A stretch of DNA of 44,039 bases from a phage (GCA_030821775.1 GCA_030821775.1_4700.1), one strand, 5' to 3'; positions 15,347-37,259 are shown, numbered from the stretch's first letter. Notes: generated from the sequence alone by a model not told the origin. A program made the numbers and translations.

Positions 15347-16030
15347 TTAGATTTTCACGTAGGTTTCTTCAGTAACGATAGGGAGGTACAGTAATTCTTC
15401 ACCATTCAAGATGTGAAGACCTTTCAATCCTTGCTTAATGATAATATCTTCTATGGTTTTAGCAAAATTGGTATTAGCTACACGACGAGGTGTGCCATGC
15501 TCTGTGATTGCATGGTCAACATCATGATTCGCACAGGTACATTAGGGTGCATCATGGCTTCACCAATCTTCACCATAGCTTGTCCGGTGGATTTACCAAG
15601 AGCACGAGTGTTAAACTGTGTAACACCTAATGCAGTGCCACACAGCTTAATCATTTCACTTTGGGTCTTACCAGTGATTACATTGCGGCGCTCTTTCTTG
15701 AGTGTGGTCTTTGCTTTGCCACATGCCTCTGCTAAAGTTTGAATGCCACCACTATAGAGGTGTGCTGTAATATCACTTTCTGCATCTGGCGAGCGCACTT
15801 GTCGCAAATCTCATCATGTATGCACTTACATTGGTTGTTTACCTCTACAATCTTTTCAAGGTATTTATGTGCGTTCTTCTTGTTATAGAAAGCCTTAATA
15901 CCATTATCATATACTACATGATACAGGTTCTCACTTACATTATGCACTACACCATGACAACGATAGAGACGTGATGTTTATTGATGTTACGAACATAATC
16001 ACCTACATTCAATACTAATTTATACATAAT
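15347..16030 (-). pseudogene. Frameshift-disrupted gene, possibly a degenerate HTH-containing homing endonuclease
   Basis: Four consecutive minus-strand ORF segments in different frames (about 27 aa, 71 aa, 109 aa, 64 aa) tile this ~680-bp region; includes a Cys cluster (CKCIHDEICDKC) and an HTH-like stretch (TQSEMIKLCGTALGVTQFNTRAL). Confidence 0.4.
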
Positions 16031-21224: not shown

Positions 21225-22097
21225 TCACTTAGTTAACTCTTCTACTGCCTCAGAGATTAAAGCCCATGCCTCGTGGCCTTCACCATAGCCCAGCTTAACC
21301 AGTTCGCGGCGCGCCTTGTTAACTGCGGTCTTCTTCGTTGCCTCCTCAGCGCTCAAACCTAGGCGAGCGTAGAAACAGGACGATTTGAACTGCGGCAGCA
21401 TAGGCGCGGCGCTTTTCTTGGTTTCCCGTGCGCTGGTCAGTTCTGCTATGCGGCCGTTTGCTGCGGTAAGTTGCTCGGTCAGCGTCTTTATTTGCGCCAA
21501 CAGGCTAGCCATAGCCGCGTTCTCGGTGTTCTCAGTGTTATCCAGCTTAGGCGCTGCTACCTCGGTAGTCGCTGGTGCATCTTCCCACGGTGCGGATTCG
21601 TCGCCCTCCGGTGCTATATCCTGCGGTACGCTTTGCAATGCCTCAGATTCTACAGGAGCGGCCTTCTCAGCTGGTTTTGTGGCTTCGGCTTGTGATTGGT
21701 TGGCTTCAGCCTTCACAGGCTTAGACGGCGCCACAAGCGCGTTAACGGCCTTGGTGTCTAATTCGCCGTTAGCGGCAAGTTCGGCGGCCTTATCCATGAT
21801 TGCTCTATCATCGGCAAAAGGGATAAGGGCAAGCATGGCACGCATGGCAACGCCTTTAAAACGCTCATCACCATCAAAGCAACGCGCTACGTTCATCAGG
21901 TTGTAGCATTGTGCTTTCTTGATACCGAACTCAGCTTCTACATAAGCCAGGAACTCACGCTGATTCTCAAAATCACCGCGTAACTCATTCAGGAGGGAAC
22001 CTACTTTGAGGTAAGAGGCTCCTATTGTTTCTAAGTGTGCTTTGATTTCAGCAGTTGCAGCTTCACGGACAGAAACGATGGTGTTTTCAGTAGTCAT
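21225..22097 (-). CDS. Early protein of unknown function (290 aa)
   Basis: N-terminal globular region, central Ala/Pro/Glu-rich low-complexity linker, C-terminal helical region; just upstream of RNAP and downstream of a phage promoter; no SD. Confidence 0.55.
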   Translation of the reverse strand: MTTENTIVSVREAATAEIKAHLETIGASYLKVGSLLNELRGDFENQREFLAYVEAEFGIKKAQCYNLMNVARCFDGDERFKGVAMRAMLALIPFADDRAIMDKAAELAANGELDTKAVNALVAPSKPVKAEANQSQAEATKPAEKAAPVESEALQSVPQDIAPEGDESAPWEDAPATTEVAAPKLDNTENTENAAMASLLAQIKTLTEQLTAANGRIAELTSARETKKSAAPMLPQFKSSCFYARLGLSAEEATKKTAVNKARRELVKLGYGEGHEAWALISEAVEELTK

Positions 22098-22167
22098 ATA
22101 GTCACTATTTGGTTTGTTGAGATAATTTAATCGGGCGCTAACAAGTAACGCCCTGTTAAGTCATCTC

Positions 22168-22185
22168 TTATAGTGTCACATAAAT
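22168..22185 (-). promoter_or_regulatory. SP6-type phage promoter (variant)
   Basis: Plus TTATAGTGTCACATAAAT, two deviations from consensus, upstream of the 290-aa early gene. Confidence 0.55.
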
Positions 22186-22290
22186 AACTTGTATGTAGTT
22201 CCTAGCACTTCCTCGCGAATCTGGGCGAATCGCAAGGAGCACTTCAGGGTTACGCCGTCGGAAAAGATAAAGTTATATTGCTTTTCCATA

Positions 22291-22620
22291 TTACTCTTCC
22301 TCTTCGTCTTCATACCAAACTACACTGCTATTATTTGGCACATCATTATAAAGCGCCTCATAAATGCGAGCCTGTAGAATCTTGGTTACGTCCTTAGTGT
22401 CAGAAATCAAGCCAGCATCCTCGAATTCGGTATCAATACCGTCGGCTGCCATCACAGTAAAGATTTCATGATAATAGTGAGGTACCTTGCCGTCTACAAC
22501 CTCATGCAGTGCATCAGAATAATCATCATCTTCACGGATACCATCGTATTGAATGCGTTCATTGAATGCTTCAACAGTTGCAGCCAGAAGTTCATAATAA
22601 GCGTTTGCATCACGTTTCAT
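22291..22620 (-). CDS. ocr: Ocr-like DNA-mimic anti-restriction protein (T7 gp0.3 homolog)
   Basis: 109-aa highly acidic ORF with GAGGA SD. The core ERIQYDGIREDDD...VPHYYHEIFTVMAADGIDTEFEDAGLISDTKDVTKILQARIYEAL aligns closely with T7 Ocr as I recall it; acidic C-terminal tail. Confidence 0.8.
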   Translation of the reverse strand: MKRDANAYYELLAATVEAFNERIQYDGIREDDDYSDALHEVVDGKVPHYYHEIFTVMAADGIDTEFEDAGLISDTKDVTKILQARIYEALYNDVPNNSSVVWYEDEEEE

Positions 22621-22769
22621 GATTTAATCCTCATTAGTTAGTTAGGTTACATTATAGGAGACTCAAGAGAATCTCCTAGATTTAACCTATCCCGACTAAG
22701 AAGCTACCTATCCAAATCGTTAAAGAGCTTGGTTTGCGCCTTGATAGGCCAGCTTATGCTGGCTGCTAT

Positions 22770-22949
22770 CTATTTGTAAACACGTAACAAGTGCAAGGAT
22801 TGCTTAAAGCCGTGCTCTTTGATATATGCAATAGTTCTTATATGACAAGTAAAAGCAGGCTCCCATTTATCAGACCCTCGCTTCTTACCATATATCACCT
22901 CCATATCTTCTAAGATATCGTACTTTAATCTATCAGTAAGTTTACGCAT
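22770..22949 (-). CDS. Small early protein (59 aa)
   Basis: Hand-translated ORF MRKLTDRLKYDILEDMEVIYGKKRGSDKWEPAFTCHIRTIAYIKEHGFKQSLHLLRVYK; weak SD. Confidence 0.35.
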   Translation of the reverse strand: MRKLTDRLKYDILEDMEVIYGKKRGSDKWEPAFTCHIRTIAYIKEHGFKQSLHLLRVYK

Positions 22950-23063
22950 GATAGTTTACCTTATCAGTAAGCCTATCAAGACACAAACCAAATTATTAAA
23001 GAGCGTTGCCTCTCGGCTATGTGCTTAATGTAACCTTGTATGCCGTGGCTGTCAATAGTTAAT

Positions 23064-24170: not shown

Positions 24171-24440
24171 CTATGGGGACATCCCGGCGAGGGCGAGGGC
24201 GAGAGAGCTGACACACGCCTATATCAAAATTTTGACTTTGGTTACTTTGTGTACATCCATAATGAATACATCAGGGCAGCCAATAGGCTACCTGCACAAG
24301 CTATAGCGATAACCTGTAGCCAATTCTTAGGGTCTGTAGGTTCATATGAAACCCAACCATCTTTCAGCATGTTACCTCCCTTGGAATACACTAAGGACAA
24401 ACCTAAGTCTGCCCTTGTTTATACTAAGATATTAACCTGC

Positions 24441-24590
24441 TTACGCAGAAGATGCAGAAGGTTTCTTCATGGCACGACGTTGAACATCCTTGGCAATGGT
24501 ATAAGCCTGCTTAGGGTCACGTCCTGATTGAATAAGCTCTTCTGTGTTCTGGAGTACAGCAGCTTGCTTAACTGATTTTATTAAGGGCAT
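24441..24590 (-). CDS. Small ORF (49 aa) after the distal tailspike gene
   Basis: Hand-translated MPLIKSVKQAAVLQNTEELIQSGRDPKQAYTIAKDVQRRAMKKPSASSA; AGGAGG SD overlaps the tailspike stop. Last ORF before the terminal region. Confidence 0.35.
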   Translation of the reverse strand: MPLIKSVKQAAVLQNTEELIQSGRDPKQAYTIAKDVQRRAMKKPSASSA

Positions 24591-24601
24591 TCAACCTCCT
24601 A

Positions 24602-26314
24602 CTACTTTGCAACCCAACCTTGAGCAGATGTACCAGATTCTTTAATGTACAATGTACTACCACCAGACCCATTAATACCAGTTGCCAAAGAACCGACAGG
24701 TGCACCTACACCTAAAGTTGTAGGATTGCCATTTAGTCCATAAACAATCACCGTACTAGAACCGACTCCTTGGTTATTCTGAGGTGCTTGCGTACCATAG
24801 CAATCATTGCCAATTAGTTTAATATTGGAGCAAGAAGAAGTAACACAAATACCAAGGCTTGGCTTGTTAGGGCTTTCTCCATCTACTCCAATATTACCTT
24901 CTACTAGGATGTTGTTAGCTCCTGTGTCTATACTAATGAAGTGTCTACCTGCTTCAGCGGTAGATACTTCCTTCATATTATTAGCTTTAATCACTAGACC
25001 GCTAGCCTTGCAGTTTACATGAATACCATATTGCCCTAATTTAGAGAAGATATTACGACTAAGTATACCTTCTCCTGATAAACCAGTACCAATGAATGTA
25101 GTAGCATCAGACTCACCTAACCAAATCCCACTACCTCTTCCGTTTTCCCAAGTATTACCTTCGATGTGGTATTTTGTCCCAAAGCGTAAACCGATTAACC
25201 CTAAGCCACCAGAGCCTGTATTACCTTTTACAATTAAATTCTTACACCACCTTGCATCTACACCATAGGATACATCCCCTGTGAGGATCATAGTATTATT
25301 AGAAATTTCAATATGGTCATGCCAAATGTCACTAATATCGGTAAAAGGCCAAGATGGTGCATCAATTAGCACTGGTGCTCTTACGCCATCAAAAGTACAA
25401 CCTACAACACTACCTTGTCGAGTCCCTTGCGGTTTAGTTTGAGAGGAGACAGGTGTAACATGAACGCCTCTTGCATTAGAGTTTCTAAAGGTGCAACCAC
25501 GTACTGTCCAGTTTTTCCAGTTAAATACACGTACACCTGCAAAGAGAGCACCATCTGTAGTGCAATTCAAGATACGGATATTGTTGCCCTGTACACCATA
25601 AGCTGAGGCGTGATTTCCGATTAGTGCACCATAACCTCCAAACCCGGATTCTGGGTTTGGACCAGCATAGCAATTCTCCACCAGCATACCACTAGACTGC
25701 ACATAGTGACCAACTGTAATAAGTCCTGGGTCTAACTGTATAGCCTCTGAGAAGCTACGACTGCCTGTATTCTTAAACCCTAGGAATTTACAATCACGAA
25801 TAACTACGTTGTTCCAATCTGCTAAATCTATGGCGTGGTAGTCCACTACATTGTTAACTGTTATGCCTTCAAACTTCAAATCATTATTACTAGTAGATGC
25901 AAATACTACAAAAGGTGTATCCCCTTTAGTGTGACCATTGCCTTCATAGACACCTCCACTGACTGTTACATTACTAGCTTGCCTTTGTGATAATCTGAAT
26001 AGCGTATCTCCTGTTTCGTAGTCACGTACAAATGTTACACCTTTAGCAACCTTGAAGTGTGTATTAGCAAATATCTCAACAGTACCACTGAGTTTATATT
26101 CGCCAGCTTTAGTGACTGATACAGTACCACCGCCTAGCAATCTGACCGCATTGAATGCAGCTTGAAGGGCTTGCCTGTTGTCATTAGAAGAGGGATTAAC
26201 TCCAAAATCCGCAACATCTATTGTATCCGATAGTTTATCAGATAGCAGGCGCTCAATAGTACCTGTTAGTTTACTCTTGTACTTCACCAAGTAAGCACTT
26301 AATCTTTGAAGCAT
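24602..26314 (-). CDS. Tailspike 2: beta-helix polysaccharide depolymerase
   Basis: 570-aa ORF with AAGGAGG SD; N-terminal pectate-lyase-3-like motif (DVADFGVNP...), many Gly/Asn-rich repeat turns typical of right-handed parallel beta-helix tailspikes; terminal position as in SP6/K1-5. Confidence 0.7.
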   Translation of the reverse strand: MLQRLSAYLVKYKSKLTGTIERLLSDKLSDTIDVADFGVNPSSNDNRQALQAAFNAVRLLGGGTVSVTKAGEYKLSGTVEIFANTHFKVAKGVTFVRDYETGDTLFRLSQRQASNVTVSGGVYEGNGHTKGDTPFVVFASTSNNDLKFEGITVNNVVDYHAIDLADWNNVVIRDCKFLGFKNTGSRSFSEAIQLDPGLITVGHYVQSSGMLVENCYAGPNPESGFGGYGALIGNHASAYGVQGNNIRILNCTTDGALFAGVRVFNWKNWTVRGCTFRNSNARGVHVTPVSSQTKPQGTRQGSVVGCTFDGVRAPVLIDAPSWPFTDISDIWHDHIEISNNTMILTGDVSYGVDARWCKNLIVKGNTGSGGLGLIGLRFGTKYHIEGNTWENGRGSGIWLGESDATTFIGTGLSGEGILSRNIFSKLGQYGIHVNCKASGLVIKANNMKEVSTAEAGRHFISIDTGANNILVEGNIGVDGESPNKPSLGICVTSSCSNIKLIGNDCYGTQAPQNNQGVGSSTVIVYGLNGNPTTLGVGAPVGSLATGINGSGGSTLYIKESGTSAQGWVAK

Positions 26315-26399
26315 GTAACCTCCTTTTCTGAAAGGCTACCACCATGATAACCTTTAAGAAAAGTTGCGTGAAAAGCAGTGCTTACGCACTGCCTGTTGC

Positions 26400-28298
26400 T
26401 TACTTAGGCAGGGAAGCTAGTGCTTCCTGCATACGCTTAATAGTCCGCCGCATCAACGCAGCCTCTAATATCAGTACTTCCTCGTAACGAATACCGTAGC
26501 GGGAACCTGCTGGTGTAATCAGTTTACGAGAGCCATTGGCATCTTCCTCGTATACATCATCCCAACTGTCGAAGCACAAGAAGCCATAGCGATGTGCATC
26601 TATACCGTGACGTTCGAAAGCCTCCTTAGCTCGCTGAGCGATGATGCCAAAGTGCCATCTAGCTGAGTCTACACCCTTCTCCTCAATTCGGTCCAAGTAC
26701 TGAAACTGCACAAAGTCAACTTCAGACCAAGCATCCAGTAAAGCATCTGAGATAATAAGAGGCTCTGTTTTATCCCTAGCATCTGAGACAACAGTGAATG
26801 CTGATTGAGTAAAACCGCCAGACCACACTCGATCGGCGGAACCTAATGCGTATGTACCAGTACTATTTGGGGTCATTGCATTAGCACCTAACTGCAAATA
26901 GCCTTCTCTACTGGTAGAAAGACGCACGTTACCGTTGGTGAGGGACACTGTCCGATAAGTACCATCAGAAGTAAATAGGCGAACTTGAGAAGAAGTACCC
27001 CCACCTACAGCTAATGACACAGCACCGTCCCCAAGCATTCTGTACTTATCAGCAGAAGTAAGAGCGCCAGAAGGGGGTGACATGGACTTAATCCGCCATT
27101 CGAACCTACCTGACATACTACCTATGTACTGCCCTAAGGCAGGTGCGTGCACTACGTTACTATTATTAGTGCCGTCAATAGTAGCTGCACCGGCAATAGT
27201 ACTAGCAGAACTGAGAAGGTCGTTTCTCCTGCCAGGGTGCTTTACCTCTACGAAGTTACGTGTAGAGCCGGATTCGAAAGTAATAACACCTGTAGCACTG
27301 TAGCTAGGAAATACAGACGCATAGTTGTTATTAGCTGTACCTATAAAGCGTGCAATTGTAGCAGTCTGCTTTTGTCCTAAAGAGTTAGTACCATCACATC
27401 CTGACATAAGCACATTATTTATGACGTTATCAGAACCCTCTACTGTAACACCATGAGCCTGCCCAGCATCAGAAGTTGAGTAATCTACGAGCACGTCTGA
27501 GATTAAGTTCGTACTTCCTTTGCCTGCAACAACCGCTGCATACTTAGGGTTATTAGCCATCACCCCCTTGATAAGGTTATTAGAAGGAGCTATTGGCCCT
27601 TCAGTGCCGTTGTAAGTTACATGCTGACAATCTGTCCCTATAACATTACTGACTATGTTGTAACTGGCTTTACCTTTCAACTCTACTGCTCCGAACTGAG
27701 GGTAGTTCTTAGCAATGACGTTATCTATGAGGGAGTTAACTGAGGAATCAGCAAGTACGCATCCGGCTGCCTTATTAGTAGCATAGCCGGAATAGCTACC
27801 TCGAATGCCTTTAATCATAAGTCCATCCGGTGGCGCACCATTAGGGTATGCGATTAAACTGAAACCAATACCTTTAACGTCTGAGAAGTTAACGTCACTT
27901 ACAGTAACATCACTTCCACCAGCAAGGGATACCTGCTGTCCCTGAGTTGTATCAGTCGCCTTATTACTTTCTACCGTAATATTACTTAAGCGACCTGCAC
28001 GTAGATTGTTAAATACTAGGTAGTTACCTGTACTTGAACGGTGACTTAGCACGCCACTACCCCTGCCGTCTAAGTTACAGTAATTACTATTAATACCAGA
28101 GCTAGAGAATACACCATCTGAGACTGTGACAGCTTTCTGAGAGTTTAATGAAGCAGCTATAACCTCCGTATCATCAGTAGTGGCGTCACCTGCAGCACCA
28201 AACGGCTTTGATGTTAAAACTCTCGCATCAAGGTACTCATACAAAGATTGTCCTTTATGCAAGATTCCTTCAGTATTAGGTTTGGTTAATTTAGCCAT
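26400..28298 (-). CDS. Tailspike 1: depolymerase with C-terminal intramolecular chaperone domain
   Basis: Track ORF 26400..28358 begins at TTG; the ATG at 28298 (MAKLTKP...) has an AGGAGA SD. N-terminal FGAAGDATTDDT motif, beta-helix repeats, and a C-terminal ~128-aa domain (SDARDK...GIIAQRAKEAF...) resembling the self-cleaving chaperone (peptidase S74) of endosialidase and K5 lyase tailspikes. Confidence 0.75.
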   Translation of the reverse strand: MAKLTKPNTEGILHKGQSLYEYLDARVLTSKPFGAAGDATTDDTEVIAASLNSQKAVTVSDGVFSSSGINSNYCNLDGRGSGVLSHRSSTGNYLVFNNLRAGRLSNITVESNKATDTTQGQQVSLAGGSDVTVSDVNFSDVKGIGFSLIAYPNGAPPDGLMIKGIRGSYSGYATNKAAGCVLADSSVNSLIDNVIAKNYPQFGAVELKGKASYNIVSNVIGTDCQHVTYNGTEGPIAPSNNLIKGVMANNPKYAAVVAGKGSTNLISDVLVDYSTSDAGQAHGVTVEGSDNVINNVLMSGCDGTNSLGQKQTATIARFIGTANNNYASVFPSYSATGVITFESGSTRNFVEVKHPGRRNDLLSSASTIAGAATIDGTNNSNVVHAPALGQYIGSMSGRFEWRIKSMSPPSGALTSADKYRMLGDGAVSLAVGGGTSSQVRLFTSDGTYRTVSLTNGNVRLSTSREGYLQLGANAMTPNSTGTYALGSADRVWSGGFTQSAFTVVSDARDKTEPLIISDALLDAWSEVDFVQFQYLDRIEEKGVDSARWHFGIIAQRAKEAFERHGIDAHRYGFLCFDSWDDVYEEDANGSRKLITPAGSRYGIRYEEVLILEAALMRRTIKRMQEALASLPK

Positions 28299-28382
28299 GC
28301 TATCTCCTATTACTTCCCAACCCTCCCCATGAAGATTGGCTAGTAATAGGCCGCTCAAAAGAACGGCACTATCTTATCTCTT

Positions 28383-28400
28383 CTATAGTGTCTCCTAAAT
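28383..28400 (-). promoter_or_regulatory. SP6-type phage promoter upstream of the tailspike genes
   Basis: Plus CTATAGTGTCTCCTAAAT ~85 nt upstream of the tailspike 1 start. Confidence 0.7.
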
Positions 28401-28429
28401 CTGAAACCATTGATACATAAAGGTATGTA

Positions 28430-28615
28430 TTATTTATAACCGCGTTCTAGTGATAAAATGTACAGTCCAAGTTGTGTAGCATCAGGCTTGCTAAAGCAGA
28501 CCTTATCGTCTACTTCGTACACTGCCGTCAGCGTCGGCTTGGTTGGGCGTTCTGGTAACGCCGTCCCGCACCCGGAAGTGGTCAGCGAACCAATCAGCAG
28601 GATTGTCGCTAGCAT
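28430..28615 (-). CDS. o-spanin (Rz1-like outer-membrane lipoprotein)
   Basis: Track ORF 28430..28678; from the internal ATG the product MLATILLIGSLTTSGC... has a signal peptide with lipobox (LTTSGC) and a short Pro-rich mature part; overlaps the i-spanin-like ORF out of frame. Confidence 0.55.
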   Translation of the reverse strand: MLATILLIGSLTTSGCGTALPERPTKPTLTAVYEVDDKVCFSKPDATQLGLYILSLERGYK

Positions 28616-28712
28616 GATTCGCTTCACGTTGAGCCTCCTTCTGCTCTTGTTCTCGCTTGTAGGCAACCAGCAGGCCAAGTAGACCTGCCAGCACCTTAAG
28701 CAGCTTATTCAC
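28503..28712 (-). CDS. i-spanin-like protein (N-terminal transmembrane helix)
   Basis: 69-aa ORF with one N-terminal hydrophobic helix (LLKVLAGLLGLLVAY) then a charged region; alternative start and no SD; shorter than typical i-spanins. Confidence 0.4.
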   Translation of the reverse strand: MNKLLKVLAGLLGLLVAYKREQEQKEAQREANHASDNPADWFADHFRVRDGVTRTPNQADADGSVRSRR

Positions 28713-28968
28713 AGCCTACGGCTTGGCAGATAACACTGGTAACTGCATCGGCAGTCTGAGCACCAAACTCAACACCCATGCCAACAGAAACCAACGCCAC
28801 TACCAAACCTACCAGTGCTGCGACTACCTTCTTACTCTTTAACAGCCTCACAACCAGCCCTCGCTTTCCATTCGTTCAGAAGGTGAGTATAGTTCTGGAA
28901 GTCAGTGTAGTTTCCAGCTTCACAGGCCTCCTTTACCTTACGCTCACAGTATGCAATGCAACCCTTCA

Positions 28969-29313
28969 TTACCACCTCGCTTTGTTAGAGCGCACATCGA
29001 TGTGTGTGAAGTTCGGGTAAGCACCAATGCCGTACTTGTCTGGGTACTTGTTGCATAGGTACTCTAGCACCTTGGTAGGTGATACACCTTTCACATTAAT
29101 GTCAGCAGCAATGCCAAGCAGATGCTTGGAGTCACGAGCGCCACCAACATTTGAGTTGTGTTTAGCACAGCGATGACCAGAGGTGATAACTACAGGCGCA
29201 TCAAAATGCTCACGCACATCTGTGACTACCTGTAATAACTCAGCATCAACAGTGGATGTACCGCACCCACAACGGCAAGCAAATTCTTTACGCTTGAAGT
29301 ATTTGTTAAGCAT
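28969..29313 (-). CDS. Endolysin, peptidase M15-type (L-alanyl-D-glutamate peptidase-like)
   Basis: Track ORF to 29367 starts at TTG; the ATG at 29313 has a GAGGG SD. Zn-binding pattern SGHRCAKHN...D...H typical of M15 endolysins; no signal peptide. Confidence 0.65.
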   Translation of the reverse strand: MLNKYFKRKEFACRCGCGTSTVDAELLQVVTDVREHFDAPVVITSGHRCAKHNSNVGGARDSKHLLGIAADINVKGVSPTKVLEYLCNKYPDKYGIGAYPNFTHIDVRSNKARW

Positions 29314-29315
29314 TA

Positions 29316-29600
29316 TTAGCCCTCTGCTGGAGTGACAGGTGACTCCACCATAGTAGTTGCATACCAAGGGTCAGTTGGTTCACTACCATGTGCAATAGCG
29401 ATGTACAAGGTGTTTGCTTTCTCTACAGCAACCATGGCACCTTTCTGCTTACCAGATAGGTGTTTAATGTTGATAGGATGATTTTTCTTCTGAAGGTCTT
29501 CTTCAGCAACAACAGGCATGGGGATTGCCGTTGCAATAGTTTGTACTGCCTTTACTCGAAAAGCCTGACCAGTAACAGAACCTGTACCATATGTAGCCAT
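29316..29600 (-). CDS. Small protein, paralog B of a tandem pair
   Basis: 94-aa ORF with GGAGG SD; shares the block SGKQKGAMV...IAIA with the adjacent ORF 29616..29891. Confidence 0.55.
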   Translation of the reverse strand: MATYGTGSVTGQAFRVKAVQTIATAIPMPVVAEEDLQKKNHPINIKHLSGKQKGAMVAVEKANTLYIAIAHGSEPTDPWYATTMVESPVTPAEG

Positions 29601-29615
29601 GTAATCCTCCTCTTC

Positions 29616-29891
29616 TTAAGCTAGGGTAATAGAAGTGCCCGCTGTAACGGACAGCCAATTAGAATCTTCTTTGCCATCAACTGCAATAGCAATACTTAAT
29701 ACACCAGATGAGTCAAGACACACCATAGCTCCTTTCTGTTTGCCTGATTTGGTGGCATCATTAATAACATTGCTTTTCTTACTAGCTTCCTCTTTTGAGA
29801 TTACCGGAAGCATTAGTGCTTCACTTACAGGTTGTAACTGCTTACGACCAGACTTACCTGTAATGGGTTTACTACTATAACTATCAGCCAT
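29616..29891 (-). CDS. Small protein, paralog A of a tandem pair
   Basis: Track ORF 29616..29951 trimmed to the ATG at 29891 (AGGAGAG SD), giving 91 aa MADSYSS...; homologous to the adjacent 94-aa ORF. Confidence 0.55.
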   Translation of the reverse strand: MADSYSSKPITGKSGRKQLQPVSEALMLPVISKEEASKKSNVINDATKSGKQKGAMVCLDSSGVLSIAIAVDGKEDSNWLSVTAGTSITLA

Positions 29892-30031
29892 TATCTCTCC
29901 TATTATGTAAATATAGTAAGGAATGAAGGAATAGGGTGTACAGGAGTACACCCATACTAAGGCATACCTAGATATAACCTAGGTTAACCTATATTATCCT
30001 TGTTATTTCTCTTATTCTCTGTGCCCTCCTC

Positions 30032-30049
30032 CTATAGTGTCCCCTAATT
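30032..30049 (-). promoter_or_regulatory. SP6-type phage promoter (variant) at the 3' end of the large terminase gene
   Basis: Plus CTATAGTGTCCCCTAATT overlapping the terminase stop codon. Confidence 0.6.
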
Positions 30050-31946
30050 ACCAAGTCCTTGATATTCTTGAAGAAAGAGTATTTCGAGACTTGACCTGCA
30101 TCGTGGGTGCATTTCCGTAGACACGGCGCTGCATTGCCACTGACGTATTCACCTGTTTTCGATAACCGTGGTCTTGTCCTGTGAAGAACTCACGGCGACG
30201 GCGAGGGTCATGCATCATCTCAAGATAATCGCGCATCTCCTGCGCTCTGAGGCGATTTATCCGGTTAACCTCGTCATAGTCTATCTGAGAAGTTAATTGC
30301 CGTATAGCGCCGTACAGTGCGTCTAAGCGGTCATCATGTCGCAGGCACCCTTTCTCCAGAGTGATGTTCGAGATTTGAGCAAACAGGCTGTAGCTCATCC
30401 GAACCTCCAGAGGGTAGTGCTGGATGCTGTCAATGTCCTGCTTGATCATCTCAGCGTTGAAGATGATGCGGTGCGCGGAGAACAGCGGTTCAAGCGTCTC
30501 GATGATACGAACCTCTTTCTGACCGTGTGCGTAGTCTTCTTTCAACTCGGCAGGCCACTCACGTTCGAAGTATGGCTTAATTACCGCCTCAAACGCACCG
30601 TGACCGAAGTTCTTCTCTATGAAGACCTCTTTTACCCCTGCGGCCTTAGCCTCGCGCACAATGCGACTGAGCGCGTTCTCGGAGTATCCGCCAGGCACAC
30701 CGAAGCATTTATAGACGTAGATGAACGTCCCCAACAGGAATACGATAGCCACGCCAGTTTCGTCGCCGTTCTTACCGCCACCAGCGGGGTCAATGTACAT
30801 GACGCGGCGCTGGATTGGTCGCCACTCATACGGGCGTGCAACCGGACGGTACAGGTAGTCTGTAGGCTTGTTACCGAAGCGCGGAGCGTCACCAATCAAG
30901 TTGAGAGTGTCGTTGCTCCAAGTCGGCATCTCTGGGACAACATCTGTACCAAAGCTCATGCAGATAAGCTGGTTCAGGCGCAGGGGGTAACGGTCTGCGT
31001 CCATCAGGCGCGTGTTCAGCATGAACTGTAGCTGGAACTTAGCAGTACCTTGTGAGATTTCCTTCTCAATCAGCTTCTCGTCATCGTACATTTCAGGGCA
31101 AGTTGGAGCGCCCTGAGTCCCGTCGATGCCATAACCTGAGCGCAGTGACGGGTCTTCCATCATATCTTGGCGAATCATCGGTGCGAGGAAGTCGCCGTAG
31201 CAAGCCTCCTGCTCTAACGTTGGATACCGTCCGGGCCAGATTCGAATCTGATAGCCACGCGCTGGTAAGTTGTTGTAGATGGAGTTCACGCTCTGAGGCG
31301 TACCAAGGTAGATGATGTCACCGAACTGGTTGATTGATTCAAACTCTTTGGTCAGGTCTTCCAGCAAGGCACGGCCTGCTGCGGTACGGCTGTTCTGCAA
31401 CGATTCAACGTCATCAGCCAAGATGATGTCTGCACGAGCACCCTGCATACCCGCCTCGATAGAGTAGCAGGCCACGGACGGAGACTTGTCACTACCACGT
31501 AATGTGTAGTGAATCTCAAAGCCTTTGATTGAAGCCTTGTCACCTGCGTAGATGTCAGGCAACATGAACTCCAAGAAGTCCAGACCACGGAAGATTTTGA
31601 TAACCCAGCCTGCGATTTCCTCTGCACGCTTGGCTGTCTGCGACACAATCATGATACGCTTGTGTGGTTCATGGATGATACGAAATACAGAGTAGATTGC
31701 AGCGATTGTGGTCTTAGCCTGTCCACGCTGTGCCTCTACCATTCGATATTTGTTCCCACTGAATAGGAACTTTAAGATATCCGCTTGTACCCGATTCAAA
31801 TCAGGGTTGCCAGTGATTAATGTATTGATTACAACCTGAGCGAATGACAGAAGTCCCTGCACGGTATACGGGAATGTTTGTTGTAACTCGTGCAGCAACT
31901 CCCAACGGGCAAGGGCTTCTGCCTGAGATTCCCTTGCTTTTGCCAT
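30048..31946 (-). CDS. Terminase large subunit
   Basis: 632-aa ORF with AAGGAGG SD; start overlaps the small-subunit stop (TAATG); ATPase and nuclease-sized domains; position as T7 gp19. Confidence 0.85.
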   Translation of the reverse strand: MAKARESQAEALARWELLHELQQTFPYTVQGLLSFAQVVINTLITGNPDLNRVQADILKFLFSGNKYRMVEAQRGQAKTTIAAIYSVFRIIHEPHKRIMIVSQTAKRAEEIAGWVIKIFRGLDFLEFMLPDIYAGDKASIKGFEIHYTLRGSDKSPSVACYSIEAGMQGARADIILADDVESLQNSRTAAGRALLEDLTKEFESINQFGDIIYLGTPQSVNSIYNNLPARGYQIRIWPGRYPTLEQEACYGDFLAPMIRQDMMEDPSLRSGYGIDGTQGAPTCPEMYDDEKLIEKEISQGTAKFQLQFMLNTRLMDADRYPLRLNQLICMSFGTDVVPEMPTWSNDTLNLIGDAPRFGNKPTDYLYRPVARPYEWRPIQRRVMYIDPAGGGKNGDETGVAIVFLLGTFIYVYKCFGVPGGYSENALSRIVREAKAAGVKEVFIEKNFGHGAFEAVIKPYFEREWPAELKEDYAHGQKEVRIIETLEPLFSAHRIIFNAEMIKQDIDSIQHYPLEVRMSYSLFAQISNITLEKGCLRHDDRLDALYGAIRQLTSQIDYDEVNRINRLRAQEMRDYLEMMHDPRRRREFFTGQDHGYRKQVNTSVAMQRRVYGNAPTMQVKSRNTLSSRISRTW

Positions 31947-32245
31947 TAAGCCTCCTTAGCGAAAGCGATAACCTTACCTTGTGAAGCCTGTTTCAACTGA
32001 GCCAGACGCTTAGACAGCTTGGATTCCTCCTGTTGTGCTGCTGGCGTAGCGGTGATGCCGTTATCCAGCACCCACTTACACATCGCACCAACATCCTTAC
32101 CGGACACTAGGCCGATTGTCGCATCAGGGTTATCTTCGATTGCATCTAAGATAGCCTGTGCTTTCTTGTTGAACATCTTCGTAATTGCATTGTGTAGAAT
32201 ACCTACATCATCTTCCGATGCAGCATGTCTGTTATGATTGCTCAC
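31946..32245 (-). CDS. Terminase small subunit (T7 gp18-like)
   Basis: 99-aa ORF, GTG start with GGAGG SD, immediately upstream of and coupled to the large subunit. Confidence 0.6.
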   Translation of the reverse strand: MSNHNRHAASEDDVGILHNAITKMFNKKAQAILDAIEDNPDATIGLVSGKDVGAMCKWVLDNGITATPAAQQEESKLSKRLAQLKQASQGKVIAFAKEA

Positions 32246-32423
32246 GTCTCTTCCTCCGTGCCTTAATCTTTCCCCACACCCAGTCGCAAATCTGTAACAT
32301 AGTCCAGATAGCAGTTAGAATGTAAACCCAGTTCTCCCAACTGACTCCAAGAAAGGTTGAGCTTGTCACTAAGACACTCGGAACCCACTTAAGGCCATCG
32401 GTGATTGCATCTGAGTTTACCAT
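32232..32423 (-). CDS. Holin (T7 gp17.5-like)
   Basis: Track ORF to 32483; the ATG at 32423 has an AAGGAGG SD and gives a 63-aa protein with hydrophobic segments and a highly basic C-terminus (KIKARRKRREQS); sits between tail fiber and small terminase as in T7. Confidence 0.55.
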   Translation of the reverse strand: MVNSDAITDGLKWVPSVLVTSSTFLGVSWENWVYILTAIWTMLQICDWVWGKIKARRKRREQS

Positions 32424-32433
32424 AGCAACCTCC

Positions 32434-33393
32434 TTATACCAGTTGAAGTTTAAACATGACAGTACATTCAGGTAACGGCTCATTGAATGTCACAGTAGAA
32501 CCATGAATCTCATACGCAGAGTCAGGCTGATACAGCCCATCAAGGTAAACATCAATGCGCTTGAATGCCGTAACAACATCAATTGACTGTGTACCTTCTC
32601 TGACCTGCTGGTGCATCAAGGTTGTATCACCAGCCGTAGGTGGAGTGAGGCGACTACCGATGAGTACATACAACTCATCTCCTGCTTGCAGAGGTTCTGA
32701 CAAGGAGATAACACCATGCCCAACGGATACAGCGCCAGCCAACTCGTGCTGAAAGACACCGTTGATGAAGACCATTGCATCTTTGAACTCATATGGAGGT
32801 TGGATGATTTGCTCTCCACCAGAGGCGACCATGTACCAAGGGACAGTTCGATGTGACACACCGGAGATCATGCCCTTCTTAAGACCTGCAATCTCTAGGT
32901 CTTGTGCCTTATTCCAATCTGTATGCTTTTTGTCTACAGAATCAAGCTGGCCTTTGTTCACAGCATCGGTTTCATTGATGCCAGCACCAAGGTTAGTGAT
33001 GCGATTCCCACCCATGTTAAGGTGGCTCTTTATGAAGTAACCATCTGGCAAGAAGCCATCAAGCAGTTCCTGAATAATCTCAAGTTGTTGTATGAAGTTG
33101 TTGTTCAAAGACTTCATATCCAGAACAACGTTACGGTCGAAGACAGCATACGGGTTGTCCTTCTCAACAATCCTGCGAATACGCATCTTACGACCACTTG
33201 CTGGGGCTACGTTAAAGGTAATCTGGTTGGTGCCAGACAACACCCAACCAGTTGCTTCAACCCAATCACTTCCATCCAACCACTCTACGTGAATGTCGGA
33301 AGCACGGATATAACCTTTATCATAGCCAGCGAAGCGGAAAGAGAACGTAGTCGTGCTACCATCACCAGTCACTTCGGTATAGGTATAACTCAT
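32434..33393 (-). CDS. Tail fiber / tailspike adaptor protein (T7 gp17 N-terminal domain-like)
   Basis: ~319-aa ORF; ATG at 33393 overlaps the upstream stop (ATGA); N-terminus resembles the tail-attachment domain of T7-like tail fibers; too short to carry its own receptor-binding domain. Confidence 0.7.
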   Translation of the reverse strand: MSYTYTEVTGDGSTTTFSFRFAGYDKGYIRASDIHVEWLDGSDWVEATGWVLSGTNQITFNVAPASGRKMRIRRIVEKDNPYAVFDRNVVLDMKSLNNNFIQQLEIIQELLDGFLPDGYFIKSHLNMGGNRITNLGAGINETDAVNKGQLDSVDKKHTDWNKAQDLEIAGLKKGMISGVSHRTVPWYMVASGGEQIIQPPYEFKDAMVFINGVFQHELAGAVSVGHGVISLSEPLQAGDELYVLIGSRLTPPTAGDTTLMHQQVREGTQSIDVVTAFKRIDVYLDGLYQPDSAYEIHGSTVTFNEPLPECTVMFKLQLV

Positions 33394-36300
33394 CAATCCT
33401 CCAATAGATCAACACTGGCTTTGGTCATCTGACCAATACCAATTGTGTTTGCCAGCGGAACCAGACGGCGCACCTTGTCTACCAGTTGGCGTGTAGATAC
33501 GTCATCGTCACCGTTAGCATACTTAACCAATGCCTTGGAAAAGTCCACGGCATCACCAATAACACCAGCGCCTGCTACGAGTTCACCAAAGCCTTGTTGC
33601 TGGAAGCCCATACGTCCCGGTGCTTGCATTAGCGCATCCGGCATTAAACCGAACGTAGCCAAGGTATCACCAGCTAGGCCGAAACCTGCAACTTGTGGTA
33701 GCTTGTTGAACACACCCATAGCAATATTGTTGGTGTCAAACTTCTCTTTCAGGAACTTGTCACGGTCCTCTCGACCAATCGCCTGCATCTGCATCTGTGT
33801 TGCATAGGAAGCGTAGCCAAGCAGCGAAGACCAAGCAAGGATTTGTGCCGCTTGAATCTTGTCACCACGTAAGTCATGAATGAGTTGCTTCTCGATAGAG
33901 ACAATGGAGAATGATTTGAACTGAGTAAGTGCTTTGCCCCACCATTTGTTCATCCAGATACCTTCGTCACCAATGAAGTTACGCTGGATTAACCTACCAG
34001 ACATACGGCGTACTGCGATGCCTACGGTTTCCCGAAGGTCTGGTTCCATCACATCGAAGTTCATCATACGAACCTTCTCGCCATTATATTCAGCATAAGC
34101 TGGGTTTTCGTCGAAGTGGCGCTGTAGGCGCTTCATGGTTGCTTCATTCAGGCCAATCTCATCCAAGTCAGCCTGCGGCAACTTACGTCCACCAGACAGG
34201 TGTTCTTTAAGACGCTTGTTGATTGAACGTGCCACAATCTTCTCGGAACCACCCTGAATTGCCTTGAAGCCAGATAGCCAAGTGTTCACGCGACTACCCA
34301 TCGCAAGCCCGTTGTCTACGATTTGTGACAGCTTATTGAGGTTGTCAGCAGTCTCACCGAACTCGTCATGGCGTGTGTTCCAACCTGTCAGCCAGTTGTC
34401 TTCGCCAATGTATCCTACTAACTCCTCCATCTCACGCAGTTCTGGCTCAAGCAGTTCGCCTTGTGCTGTACCTCCTTTACGACCAGCGCGTGACCTGAGG
34501 AACTTAGTGGCAGGGACAGACTTCAGCACCGTACCTACACCCATCTTGGTTATGGCTCGTGCAAGCTCTGGGATCTGAGCAAAGCCCATCTGTCCAAGCC
34601 GCAAGAGGCCAGTCACCTCACGGAGTCGGCGTGTGCCTCTGACAATGCCAGCGTTAGGGTCTGCGTCAATAGTGTTCCCGTACATTAGGCGAACAGAATC
34701 ACGTAGCATATCTGCCTCTGCACGTAGCTGTTTGATAGCCTTGGCATCTGAGCCAGCCATGTTGCGCCCAGCGCGTTCTGCTGCGTCGATTGCGTTGAAC
34801 ACGGACTGACGGGTAGGGAAGCCCATAGCCGCCAGTGCAGCGCCCCCTGCGGCCTCTTTGCCGTAGTTCTCAACCAGTGTCGCCACGTTGGTGTTCAGCA
34901 AGTCCTGTACTTTCATACCGCCGTACTCTGCCTGCGTATTGATGCCCATGCTGGCTTTAGCACGGTTCGATACAGACTCAGCCATCTCTGCCAACTCCGT
35001 ACCTTCAATAAAGTTGTCAATGATGGAGTCAGGGACACCAGCGGATTTCAGGTCAGCAATGAGTTGCGCCTGCTGCTGCTGTGAGATAACGCGGTCGAAG
35101 GCTACACGGCTAGACAAGGTAGAGTCGGAGGCACGGATATACTGGACTTTAGCGAGTGCATCTGCTGACTTCTTACCTAGCTTGTACTTGCCTGTCTGAT
35201 AACCTTTGGACAGCAAAGCAATCACTGCCTCGCTTGAGCCAAGACGGTTAACAGCCTCGGTGATTTTGATGCCGTCGTAGATAACTGGCATGTAGTCACG
35301 AGCCGACTGCACGTTCTCGAAGCCTGCTTCACCAGCCTGCTTGCGTATCTCAAGTGCTTTCTTCAACTTGTCAGCCATACCCTCGGCAGCCAACTTAACA
35401 CCCTTGGGAGTATCTTCTGGAATACCTTTGACAATTGCTGTGTAGACTTGGTTGTTGAAGTCACGAGTTACGGCAGGGTTAAGGTAATCAATGGCCCGTA
35501 AGTTATTGTCCTTGAGGAACTGAGAGAAGCCATCGTTGTAGCGGTTACGATCTGCTGTACGAATCAGGTTGTTATACACATCAGACAAGATTGAAGCTGT
35601 CTTCCCTTGATACGCACCACCTTGTGCATTCTCAAGCAGGCGTAAGCCAAGACCACGGAACACAGGGTTCTTCGAGTTAAGAATAACGGAAGACACAGAA
35701 CCAAGCCCAAAGGTAGATACAGGCTTAACGTCAGACTGATATGCCTCACGAGCCAAGTCATCCATCAGGTCTTCCATCTTATCAGAGAGGTAGAATTGCT
35801 CACCTTGAATCTCTGAGCCTTTAACACGGGCTGCTGACAGGGAATCATCAGGCGCTGCCTTGGCTTCCACCTCTGCCTGTGCAGCCTCGTCAAACTTCTG
35901 AGTCGGCGTCTTCTTAGCAGCCTGCTCTGCCTTGATAGCAGCAACTGCCTCCTTCACTGCACTGTGCATATCAACCTTACGTGACGGCACTTCCAGTCCA
36001 AGCTCTTTGATTTGCTGCTCACGCGTTAGGCTTGAGAATCTCTTAAGCTCTGCCTTGGCTGCTGGTACGTTCTCTACAGCTCTCAGCTTAGCCTGTAGTT
36101 CTTCCAAGCGACGAGTGGCATCAGCGATTGGCGCATCGAAACGACGAGCCAGTGCCTGCAATTCAACCTTAGTGTCTAATGCCTCTACCTTGTTACGCGC
36201 TGCACCTTTCTTGGCTGCATGTTCTGCCCGTGCTGCTGTACGAGTTTCCTGTAATGCAGCCAGTTCACTCTCGGCTTGTCTAATGTCAGCCTTGAGTCTT

Positions 36301-37193: not shown

Positions 37194-37226
37194 ATTACCT
37201 CCTTAGTTAATGCCATTCATAAAGGC

Positions 37227-37244: not shown

Positions 37245-37259
37245 ACCTTGAGTATGACA

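What the first reader, a model, noticed from the sequence alone, without database searches (positions are those of the whole stretch)
24602..28298. Two different depolymerase-type tailspikes at the end of the late region
Two adjacent large ORFs both show pectate-lyase-like N-terminal motifs and beta-helix repeat patterns but are unrelated in detail. The upstream one ends in a self-cleaving chaperone-like domain; the downstream one does not. The tail fiber/adaptor homolog (32434..33393) is only ~320 aa and cannot carry its own receptor-binding domain. This matches the K1-5/SP6 arrangement in which one adaptor mounts two different tailspikes, giving dual polysaccharide specificity. The enzymes set host range and are candidate capsule or O-antigen depolymerases.
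Basis: partly seen in the sequence, partly recalled or inferred. Interest (0 to 1): 0.6.

Follow-up and report, generated by a model that had tools for sequence, protein, structure and literature searches.

The report
K5 lyase plus second capsule tailspike
The two genes are the tailspike pair of an SP6/K1-5-type phage: the first is the well-known K5 capsule lyase, and the second is an uncharacterised spike already seen in about 20 coliphages that most likely targets the E. coli K2 capsule, so the layout is ordinary and only the second specificity is new.

Summary
On the minus strand, 26400..28298 encodes a 632-aa protein 96% identical to K1-5 gp46, the K5 heparosan lyase KflA (PDB 2X3H). It carries a C-terminal Peptidase_S74 self-cleaving chaperone.

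24602..26314 encodes a 570-aa right-handed beta-helix tailspike with no S74 domain. It is 96-98% identical to the second spike of LL11, EEc4, vKMB47 and the LI10/T147 Vectreviruses.

Gene order, spacing and the position-specific N-terminal peptides match K1-5. A 319-aa gp37-type adaptor lies at 32434..33393. The K1-5 interpretation is therefore supported, and this spike pair was already described for LL11 in 2019.

Two additions:
- **Mosaic genome.** The structural genes and the adaptor follow Salmonella phages SE29/PST_H2 (91-98%). The roughly 4-kb spike cassette follows E. coli Vectreviruses (96-100%), in place of a P22/Det7-type endorhamnosidase.
- **Likely K2 target.** Published host data point to the K2 capsule, a teichoic-acid-like polymer. 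Phages with this spike were isolated on K2 strains, and they give lytic signals on 7 of 8 non-O6 K2 strains against about 2% of other strains. Phages with K5 lyase and a different second spike give none. This is inferred, not demonstrated.

Interest is modest.

The parts
26400..28298 (-). TSP1: K5 heparosan lyase tailspike (KflA / K1-5 gp46 orthologue), 632 aa precursor
   Evidence: 96% identity to K1-5 gp46 over 632 aa. PDB 2x3h 'K5 lyase' matches residues 1-505 at E = 0. phrog_14895 matches full length.
26784..28298 (-). TSP1 mature part (residues 1-505): N-terminal docking peptide plus beta-helix lyase body and triple-helix stalk
   Evidence: The 2x3h chain ends exactly at query residue 505. 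E206 and K208 (AVELKG) are identical to K1-5 gp46. Their catalytic role is recalled from Thompson et al. 2010 and was not re-read.
26403..26783 (-). TSP1 C-terminal intramolecular chaperone (Peptidase_S74), released by self-cleavage at Ser505
   Evidence: PF13884 hits residues 505-565 at E = 3e-13. Matches to the endosialidase chaperone 3gw6 and the phi29 gp12 C-terminus 3gud. The motif VVS505-DARDKTEP aligns with the K1-5 gp47 sequence IVTS-NGERKTEP (sequence recalled from memory, not fetched here).
28278..28298 (-). Slot-1 N-terminal docking peptide (MAKLTKP)
   Evidence: M(A)[KRS]LT[KR]P is shared by otherwise unrelated slot-1 spikes: K5 lyase, T147 TSP1' (MARLTRP) and the SE29 endorhamnosidase (MSLTKP). 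Homology to SE29 stops at 28279.
24602..26314 (-). TSP2: LL11-type beta-helix tailspike, 570 aa, no chaperone domain; candidate K2 capsule depolymerase
26201..26314 (-). Slot-2 N-terminal docking peptide (MLQRLSAYLVKYKSKLTGTIERLLSDKLSDTIDVADFG)
   Evidence: This is the only stretch similar to K1-5 gp47 (34/90 identities, E = 8e-11). M[LI]QRL[SG][AS][YS]LVK is shared with the SE29/PST_H2 slot-2 spikes. Low pLDDT in residues 1-30 fits a peptide that folds only on the adaptor.
25610..25837 (-). TSP2 residues 160-235: invariant H160, E190, Q193, D195 and H235 on three successive helix turns; candidate catalytic groove
   Evidence: H160, D195 and H235 are invariant and E190 and Q193 are conserved in at least 90% of 22 homologues, including Firmicute and Actinobacterial proteins. 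The same residues align in PfbA. A catalytic role is inferred.
28380..28400 (-). SP6-type phage RNA polymerase promoter driving both spike genes
   Evidence: ATTTAGGAGACACTATAGAAG is one of 12 matches, all on the minus strand, against 0 expected by chance. No match lies between TSP1 and TSP2.
26375..26392 (-). Hairpin between TSP1 and TSP2, inside a conserved junction island
   Evidence: GCAGTGC-GTAA-GCACTGC followed by TTTT. Annotated as a terminator in LL11. A 112-bp stretch within the 26251-26500 bin is the only part of the cassette that still matches SE29/PST_H2, at 88%.
24441..24590 (-). 49-aa ORF directly after TSP2 (K1-5 gp48 / LL11 gp054 homologue), part of the transferred segment
   Evidence: Translation. 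Annotated at the same position in LL11, EEc4 and K1-5.
32434..33393 (-). Adaptor (gp37 homologue): T7 gp17-type N-terminal domain, no receptor-binding domain
   Evidence: PF03906 at residues 3-152. 91% identity to the SE29 adaptor and 58% to K1-5 gp37 and EEc4.
24250..28300 (.). Vectrevirus-derived segment (spike cassette) inside an SE29/PST_H2-like chassis
   Evidence: In 250-bp bins this stretch is 96-100% identical to EEc4 and has no match to SE29. From 28500 upward it is 92-98% identical to SE29/PST_H2 and about 75% to EEc4.

Best explanation
This is the receptor-recognition module of an SP6/K1-5-type podovirus. One phage promoter (28380-28400) transcribes two spike genes.

TSP1 is the K5 lyase. 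It trimerises with the help of its C-terminal S74 chaperone, which then cuts itself off at Ser505. The mature spike cleaves the K5 (heparosan) capsule by beta-elimination.

TSP2 is a second, unrelated beta-helix spike that folds without a chaperone. It most likely binds and depolymerises the E. coli K2 capsule, a galactosyl-glycerol-phosphate, teichoic-acid-like polymer. K2 contains no uronic acid, so cleavage would have to be hydrolytic (glycosidase or phosphodiesterase) rather than eliminative.

Each spike docks by a short, slot-specific N-terminal peptide onto the 319-aa gp37-type adaptor. The adaptor sits on the tail through its T7 gp17-like N-terminal domain. The virion therefore carries both spikes and can open two capsule types.

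The cassette was acquired by recombination at the conserved borders (promoter and first codons of slot 1, the inter-spike junction, the genome end). The recipient chassis has close relatives that carry Salmonella O-antigen spikes.

Shown here: the identities, domains, fold, synteny and mosaic borders. Taken from literature: assembly on gp37. Inferred: K2 specificity and enzymatic activity of TSP2. The confidence of 0.6 is for the whole statement: about 0.9 for the architecture and TSP1, about 0.55 for the K2 assignment.
For: - **TSP1 identity.**. S74 domain and the end of the crystallised chain at residue 505.
- **TSP2 fold.**
- **Same layout as K1-5 and LL11.**. Slot-specific N-termini. Adaptor. 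Adaptor function from cryo-EM as reviewed in PMC6966330. Single promoter.
- **Mosaic.**. The slot-1 spike of SE29 is a Det7/P22 endorhamnosidase.
- **K2, line (i).** Phages with K5 lyase plus this TSP2 were isolated or propagated on K2 hosts with different O antigens: LI10 (O25:H4, K2) and CFT073 (O6:K2:H1). vKMB14, which has K5 lyase plus another TSP2, does not infect CFT073.
- **K2, line (ii).** The T147 Vectreviruses carry this TSP2 with an unrelated slot-1 spike. They score at least 1 on 7 of 8 non-O6 K2 strains, against 8 (T147_P10) or 5 (T147_P9) of 329 strains that are neither K2, K5 nor O6. Fisher p = 5e-10 and 7e-11.
- **K2, line (iii).** T205_P4/P5 (K5 lyase plus another TSP2) score 0 of 10 on K2 strains.
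- **K2, line (iv).** A P22-like prophage tailspike, 47-48% identical to TSP2 over its whole catalytic part, is present in 24 of 5426 complete E. coli genomes. All 5 genomes checked carry the K2 biosynthesis genes, which occur in only 141 of 5426 genomes.
- **K2, line (v).** K2 region 2 encodes a CDP-glycerol glycerophosphotransferase, and K2 is a 'teichoic acid-like polymer' (Jann 1980, as cited in PMC13171606). The nearest sequence and structure relatives of TSP2 outside coliphages are tailspikes of phages of Gram-positive hosts, including phi29-type pre-neck appendages.
- **Halos.** vKMB47, grown on CFT073, makes haloed plaques.
Against: - No enzymatic or binding assay of TSP2 exists.
- Most K2 signals in the matrix are MLC 1, meaning clearing only at MOI 10, which can be lysis from without or abortive infection. 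Only ECOR-66 and LI10 score 3-4, and one K2 strain (NILS75) scores 0.
- The columns for the LI10 phages, the closest match to this window's spike pair, were cut from the stored file.
- The tabulation was done by hand from a preprint supplement.
- The five prophage-bearing genomes checked share one genomic context and are probably one ST131 sublineage (only strain 4433 is labelled ST131), so they are not independent. They are also probably all O25b.
- Two ST131 strains not typed as K2 (NILS55, NILS64) behave like weak K2 strains.
- The closest solved structure, PfbA, is an adhesin with no known enzyme activity.
- The fold search does not single out any catalytic class.
Confidence: 0.6

Rival explanations
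1. TSP2 is a depolymerase for another surface polysaccharide, not K2. Candidates are the O25b or O6 O-antigen, or another group 2 capsule such as K95, which older work (recalled from memory) links to phage K5.
For: The prophage relative P0006 occurs in genomes at least three of which are labelled O25b:H4-ST131. LI10, NILS73, NILS55 and NILS64 are all ST131 O25:H4. CFT073 and T147 are O6. P22-type prophage spikes usually target O antigens. T147 phages also infect O6 strains that lack K2.
Against: - Non-K2 O25 strains score 0 with the T147 phages: ECOR-15, -52, -54, NILS01 and NILS19.
- K2 strains of O1, O4, O75, O107 and O-negative types score positive.
- The O6 pattern is shared with Kayfunavirus T147_P5. 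Its fibre is homologous to the T147 slot-1 spike (43%), so that pattern belongs to slot 1.
- vKMB47 and the LI10 phages lack that slot-1 spike yet grow on O6:K2 and O25:K2 hosts. K2 is the only shared antigen.
- K95 could not be tested. No K95 strain or phage K5 ORF sequence was available.
Confidence: 0.2
2. TSP2 is a binding-only spike, an adhesin-like beta-helix. It recognises a surface glycan reversibly and has no depolymerase activity.
Against: - A set of polar residues (H160, E190, Q193, D195, H235) is invariant or conserved in at least 90% of 22 distant homologues, which fits a conserved active site.
- All close viral relatives are annotated tailspikes.
- vKMB47 makes haloed plaques on its K2 host, where K5 lyase has no substrate.
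- A capsule about as thick as the tail is long has to be cut for a short-tailed phage to reach the outer membrane (general knowledge; Leiman 2007).
Confidence: 0.1
3. Only TSP1 is functional. TSP2 is a passenger or vestigial slot-filler, like the truncated gp46 of K1E, with no effect on host range.
For: K1E shows that one slot can hold an inactive remnant (PMC6966330). A hairpin annotated as a terminator lies before TSP2.
Against: - TSP2 is a full-length, confidently folded 570-aa protein.
- It is conserved at 96-98% in about 22 phages paired with at least two different slot-1 partners.
- It has a strong ribosome-binding site, AAGGAGG.
- Host range tracks with it.
Confidence: 0.03

Closest known systems
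Escherichia phage K1-5 gp46 (K5 lyase) / gp47 (endosialidase) / gp37 (adaptor)
   Same: Same gene order and spacing. TSP1 is 96% identical to gp46. TSP2 shares the slot-2 N-terminal peptide with gp47. The adaptor is the same length and domain type.
   Different: Slot 2 holds an unrelated beta-helix spike without an S74 chaperone, instead of the K1 endosialidase. The adaptor is only 58% identical. The structural genes belong to another lineage (66-77% DNA identity to Vectrevirus EEc4).
Escherichia phage LL11, EEc4, vKMB47, vB_EcoP-101101UKE1, LI10_P3-5 (Vectrevirus)
   Same: The same spike pair: K5 lyase plus this TSP2, 96-98% identical across the whole 4-kb cassette. The LL11 genome note already points out the dual-spike arrangement.
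   Different: Outside the cassette the window is only 66-91% identical to EEc4, the member compared across the whole genome. Its structural module is closest to Salmonella phages SE29 and PST_H2. In EEc4 the K5 lyase gene is annotated as two fragments; here it is intact.
Salmonella phages vB_SalP_SE29 / PST_H2 and SP6 (labelled Zindervirus)
   Same: The chassis. Tail, internal virion proteins, terminase and adaptor are 91-98% identical to SE29/PST_H2. Same two-slot layout and same N-terminal peptides.
   Different: Their slot 1 is a Det7/P22-type endorhamnosidase and their slot 2 is another spike with no solved relative. SP6 itself is only about 77% identical over 38% of the late region.
T147 Vectreviruses (T147_P1/P7/P9/P10)
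   Same: They carry this TSP2 (96-98%) and the same inter-spike junction.
   Different: Slot 1 is a 630-aa spike of a family shared with phages isolated on O6 hosts, not K5 lyase. This shows that each slot is exchanged independently.
PfbA of Streptococcus pneumoniae (3zpp/4mr0) and tailspikes of phages of Gram-positive bacteria (SPO1 gp18.3, Moonbeam, Finn, phi29-type pre-neck appendage)
   Same: The closest solved structure and, after LL11's own orthologue, the closest viral models. They share the N-terminal half of the helix with the invariant H/E/D/H residues.
   Different: Identity is 20-30% only. Different N-terminal attachment and different hosts. PfbA is described as an adhesin. No shared substrate has been shown.

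Membership tests
K5 lyase KflA (phage K5A/K1-5 gp46) | Sequence orthology to the crystallised enzyme over the whole mature chain | tested here: met
   2x3h matches residues 1-505 at E = 0 and 1030 bits. 96% identity to K1-5 gp46.
K5 lyase KflA (phage K5A/K1-5 gp46) | Conservation of the reported catalytic residues (Glu206/Lys208, recalled from Thompson 2010; paper not available) | tested here: met
   AVE206-L-K208-G is identical to K1-5 gp46. The assignment of these residues as catalytic rests on memory.
K5 lyase KflA (phage K5A/K1-5 gp46) | Beta-eliminative cleavage of heparosan | not testable with these tools
   Needs an enzyme assay. Inferred from 96% identity.
Peptidase_S74 intramolecular chaperone (endosialidase-type C-terminal domain) | Pfam PF13884 above the gathering score, at the C-terminus, preceded by the conserved cleavage serine | tested here: met
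   TSP1: 50.3 bits against a cut-off of 22, residues 505-565, with Ser505 in VVSDARDKTEP. The crystallised chain ends at residue 505.
Peptidase_S74 intramolecular chaperone (endosialidase-type C-terminal domain) | The same domain in TSP2 | tested here: not met
   No hit even at E <= 10. The C-terminus ...SGTSAQGWVAK is a short beta domain conserved in homologues.
SP6/K1-5-type dual tailspike system (adaptor plus two spikes) | Adaptor with a T7 gp17 N-terminal domain but no receptor-binding distal part | tested here: met
   PF03906 at residues 3-152. 319 aa in total against 320 aa for K1-5 gp37. 58% identity to gp37.
SP6/K1-5-type dual tailspike system (adaptor plus two spikes) | Two spike genes in tandem after the lysis genes at the right genome end, behind a phage promoter | tested here: met
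   Synteny with K1-5, LL11 and EEc4. Promoter at 28380-28400. The EEc4 right end maps to window 24205.
SP6/K1-5-type dual tailspike system (adaptor plus two spikes) | Slot-specific conserved N-terminal peptides on otherwise unrelated spikes | tested here: met
   Slot 1: MAKLTKP / MARLTRP / MSLTKP. Slot 2: M[LI]QRL..LVK.
SP6/K1-5-type dual tailspike system (adaptor plus two spikes) | Physical presence of both spikes on one adaptor in the virion | not testable with these tools
   Known for K1-5, K1E and SP6 from cryo-EM (reviewed in PMC6966330). No multimer prediction tool was available.
Pectate_lyase_3 / Pect-lyase_RHGA_epim (PF12708) | Pfam hit above the gathering score | tested here: not met
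   TSP1: E = 0.14, 12.3 bits against a cut-off of 27, at residues 94-148. TSP2: no hit. Distant TSP2 homologues P0009-P0020 do carry it.
E. coli K2 capsule depolymerase (no described family; proposed here) | Host range of phages carrying the spike follows the K2 capsule and not the O antigen | tested here: inconclusive
   7 of 8 non-O6 K2 strains against 8 of 329 others, p = 5e-10. K2 isolation hosts. Most signals are MLC 1, the tabulation was by hand, and the LI10 phage columns were unavailable.
E. coli K2 capsule depolymerase (no described family; proposed here) | Cleavage of purified K2 polysaccharide | not testable with these tools
   Needs recombinant protein and K2 polysaccharide.

The most novel reading that the evidence does not exclude
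TSP2 is the first identified depolymerase for the E. coli K2 capsule. It works as a hydrolase (glycosidase or phosphodiesterase) on a glycerol-phosphate polymer, and it descends from the tailspikes that phages of Gram-positive bacteria use against wall teichoic acids. That would be a case of a spike family following a polymer chemistry across the Gram divide.
Probability: 0.3. Interest if true: 0.6.

Novelty: new member of a known kind. Interest (0 to 1): 0.3.

Why it matters
K5 and K2 are among the commonest capsules of extraintestinal pathogenic E. coli, including ST73 (CFT073) and part of ST131. A phage or enzyme pair covering both is relevant to phage therapy and to capsule typing.

No K2 depolymerase appears in the lists of known specificities (PMC12488582). 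A testable candidate with named residues is therefore useful.

The mosaic also gives a clean natural example of a spike cassette moving between a Salmonella-phage chassis and a coliphage chassis at three short conserved junctions. These are the same junctions one would use to engineer host range.

The architecture itself teaches nothing new.

Tried and rejected
- **PF12708.**
- **Papers not held.** Scholl 2001 (phage K5 ORF-P, K95 host) and Thompson 2010 (KflA mechanism) could not be read. The relation of TSP2 to phage K5 ORF-P stays open, and the catalytic residues are from memory.
- **Cut matrix.** The stored interaction matrix holds only 49 of 96 phage columns, so LI10_P3-5 could not be scored. 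The T147 phages were used instead.
- **A wrong first assumption.** I first took the T147 phages to carry K5 lyase. Reading the locus showed a different slot-1 spike. That changed the analysis and explained the O6 pattern.
- **Missed guesses.** A guess at the kps position in strain 4993 hit the ribosomal-protein operon. The first guesses for AZ146 and strain 4433 also missed and were corrected.
- **Literature.** Searches found no paper that characterises this second spike.
- **Not attempted.** Prediction of the adaptor-spike complex (no multimer tool) and the sequence of phage K5 (not in the collections).


Full report
**What is there.**
All long ORFs of the 44-kb window lie on the minus strand, and the window is a complete SP6-like podovirus genome. 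The finding covers two adjacent ORFs.
- TSP1 is 26400..28298, 632 aa from the ATG at 28298, preceded by GGAGATAGC.
- TSP2 is 24602..26314, 570 aa, preceded by AAGGAGG.
- Twelve SP6-type promoters (ATTTAGGNGACACTATAGAAG) occur, all on the minus strand, against none expected by chance. One lies at 28380-28400 just before TSP1 and none lies between the two genes. The pair is therefore one transcription unit.
- An 18-nt hairpin (26375-26392) between the genes is annotated as a terminator in LL11.

**TSP1 is the K5 lyase.**
- It is 96% identical over all 632 residues to K1-5 gp46.
- It matches the crystal structure 2x3h, 'K5 lyase', over residues 1-505.
- Residues 505-565 are a Peptidase_S74 chaperone (E = 3e-13), with further matches to the endosialidase and phi29 gp12 chaperone structures.
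- The crystallised chain ends at residue 505, the serine of VVS-DARDKTEP. This fits self-cleavage there.
- E206 and K208, which I recall as catalytic from Thompson et al. 2010 (paper not available), are conserved.
- This part is already known biology.

**TSP2 is a different beta-helix spike.**
- BLASTP finds nothing between TSP1 and TSP2 (E = 0.38).
- TSP2 hits Beta_helix PF13229 and NosD and phrog_2234, 'tail spike'.
- An AlphaFold model built on 22 homologues is confident (pLDDT 89, pTM 0.88). It shows one long right-handed helix from about residue 40 to 530, a small C-terminal beta domain, and a disordered first 30 residues.
- H160, D195 and H235 are invariant, and E190 and Q193 are conserved in at least 90% of the 22 homologues, which include Firmicute and Actinobacterial proteins. 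These residues lie about 35-40 residues apart, one helix turn each, which suggests a groove on one face. This is inferred.
- There is no S74 domain.

**The arrangement is that of K1-5.**
- In loci fetched from LL11 and K1-5 the two spike genes start at the same offsets, 1595 and 3579. EEc4 has the same layout (1595 and 3578).
- TSP2 resembles the K1-5 endosialidase only in its first ~38 residues.
- Across phages with unrelated spike bodies, slot 1 begins M(A)[KRS]LT[KR]P and slot 2 begins M[LI]QRL[SG][AS][YS]LVK.
- The adaptor (32434..33393, 319 aa) has the T7 tail-fibre N-terminal domain and nothing distal. It is about the size of K1-5 gp37.
- The review PMC6966330 summarises the cryo-EM evidence that gp37 joins two different spikes, six of each, to the tail.
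[quoted passage not shown] The same pair at 96-98% identity is present in at least 18 deposited genomes. The vKMB47 paper makes the same point.

- The late region 28400-44039 is 93% identical to Salmonella phages vB_SalP_SE29 and PST_H2, which are labelled Zindervirus. It is below 80% to everything else.
- The early and middle genes are about 83% identical to Vectreviruses.
- A 250-bp scan places the switch between 28250 and 28500. Above it the window follows SE29/PST_H2 (92-98%). From about 28250 down to 24250 it follows Vectrevirus EEc4 (96-100%) with no SE29 match, apart from a 112-bp island at the inter-spike junction (88%).
- The adaptor belongs to the chassis: 91% identical to SE29 and 58% to K1-5 and EEc4.
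- In SE29 slot 1 holds a Det7/P22-type endorhamnosidase (E = 6e-292 to 2v5i).
- So a coliphage capsule-spike cassette has replaced Salmonella O-antigen spikes on this chassis, or the reverse happened. The joints are the short conserved sequences that also encode the docking peptides.
- The T147 Vectreviruses carry this TSP2 and junction with an unrelated slot-1 spike. The two slots are therefore exchanged independently.

**What TSP2 probably recognises.**
No paper characterises it. Host data allow a triangulation.
- *Isolation hosts.* Phages with K5 lyase plus this TSP2 were isolated on LI10 (ST131, O25:H4, K2) and propagated on CFT073 (O6:K2:H1). vKMB14, with K5 lyase and another slot-2 spike, scores 0 on CFT073, while vKMB47 scores 4 and makes halos.
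- *The T147 phages.* Their slot-1 spike belongs to a family found in phages of O6 hosts: Kayfunavirus T147_P5 43%, Kagunavirus 536_P11 48%, phiEB49 of CFT073. That accounts for their O6 pattern, which T147_P5 shares.
- *Hand tabulation.* I tabulated supplementary tables 1 and 3 of the Gaborieau et al. preprint. T147_P10 and T147_P9 score at least 1 on 7 of 8 non-O6 K2 strains: ECOR-46, ECOR-66, IAI67, LI10, NILS42, NILS58 and NILS73, but not NILS75. Among 329 strains that are neither K2, K5 nor O6 they score on 8 and 5 respectively (Fisher p = 5e-10 and 7e-11).
- *Controls.* T147_P5 scores on 1 of those 8 K2 strains. T205_P4/P5, with K5 lyase plus another slot-2 spike, score on 0 of 10. Non-K2 O25 strains score 0.
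- TSP2 is the only component shared by all K2-positive phages.

Caveats on this evidence:
- Most signals are MLC 1, meaning clearing at MOI 10 only, which may be lysis from without.
- The LI10 phage columns were missing from the stored file.
- The count was manual.

**An independent hint from prophages.**
- A P22-like prophage tailspike (P0006), 47-48% identical to TSP2 across the catalytic part and located next to P22 gp7/gp20/gp16 homologues, occurs in 24 of 5426 complete E. coli genomes.
- The K2 biosynthesis region of CFT073 occurs in 141 of 5426 genomes.
- All five prophage carriers checked have it: p11A, R6, Ecol_AZ146, AVS0753 and strain 4433.
- They share one genomic context and are probably one ST131 sublineage (only strain 4433 is labelled ST131), so this is weak.

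**Chemistry.**
- K2 region 2 encodes a 1266-aa CDP-glycerol glycerophosphotransferase.
- K2 is 'a teichoic acid-like polymer' (Jann 1980, cited in PMC13171606).
- Of 111 phage records with a TSP2 relative, most below 60% identity come from phages of Bacillus, Streptomyces, Staphylococcus, Arthrobacter and Listeria.
- After LL11's own protein, the best viral structural neighbours are Bacillus and Brevibacterium phage tailspikes and a phi29-type pre-neck appendage.
- From memory, phi29 gp12 degrades wall teichoic acid (Xiang 2009).
- The link is suggestive only. If K2 is the substrate, the lack of uronic acid excludes a lyase mechanism. This follows from established chemistry.

**Verdict.**
- The system is a known kind. 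TSP1 is a known enzyme, and TSP2 is a known but unstudied gene.
- New here are the chassis-cassette mosaic and a specific, testable K2 hypothesis with candidate residues.
- Confidence is about 0.9 for the architecture and about 0.55 for K2.
- Rivals are another polysaccharide target (0.2), a binding-only spike (0.1) and a non-functional slot-filler (0.03).

Noticed in passing
window 30048..31946 (-): The large terminase subunit is one intact 632-aa ORF. In the closest chassis relatives, SE29 and PST_H2, the gene is annotated in two pieces around a 534-bp homing-endonuclease ORF. The BLAST join at window 30779/30780 marks the insertion point.
   Followed up: partly
PDB 9vvr versus window 26403..28208 (-): A recently solved 843-aa 'tail spike protein' (18 chains) matches TSP1 residues 31-631 at its residues 242-842. 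This is the K5 lyase body on a long, presumably T7 gp17-type N-terminus. Four Kayfunavirus records also matched the cassette DNA.
   Followed up: no
L008 3996..5888 (T147 Vectrevirus slot 1): A 630-aa slot-1 spike is unrelated to K5 lyase. It has 43-48% relatives in a Kayfunavirus, a Kagunavirus and siphoviruses isolated on O6 hosts (536, CFT073, ATCC 25922), so it is probably an O6-antigen spike moving between four phage groups.
   Followed up: partly
Gaborieau preprint matrix, columns T205_P4/P5: Phages with K5 lyase and a third kind of slot-2 spike, isolated on a K7 host, hit K7 strains (IAI72 5/5, IAI54 2/2, IAI33 1/1) as well as K5 strains. This follows the same slot-2 logic for another capsule.
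   Followed up: no
Gaborieau preprint matrix, T147 columns: The T147 phages lack K5 lyase yet give MLC 1-2 on about half of the non-O6 K5 strains and on one K7 strain. T147_P1 alone gives weak signals on many K1 strains. This is unexplained. Mixed lysates or lysis from without are possible.
   Followed up: no
window 24441..24590 (-): A 49-aa basic ORF (MPLIKSVKQAAVLQNTEELIQSGRDPKQAYTIAKDVQRRAMKKPSASSA) lies 11 nt after TSP2. It is conserved with LL11 gp054 and K1-5 gp48 and travels with the cassette. Its function is unknown.
   Followed up: no
L003 1595..3492 (EEc4): In EEc4, the closest match to the cassette, the K5 lyase gene is annotated as two separate CDSs (350 aa and 227 aa) with a gap. 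This may be a frameshift or a sequencing error. The window copy is intact.
   Followed up: no
window 15001-16000 and 22001-23000: Two low-GC patches (0.40 against about 0.48 for the genome) lie in the early/middle region. They have poor or no matches to SE29 or EEc4 around 22250-23000 and are probably lineage-specific early genes.
   Followed up: no
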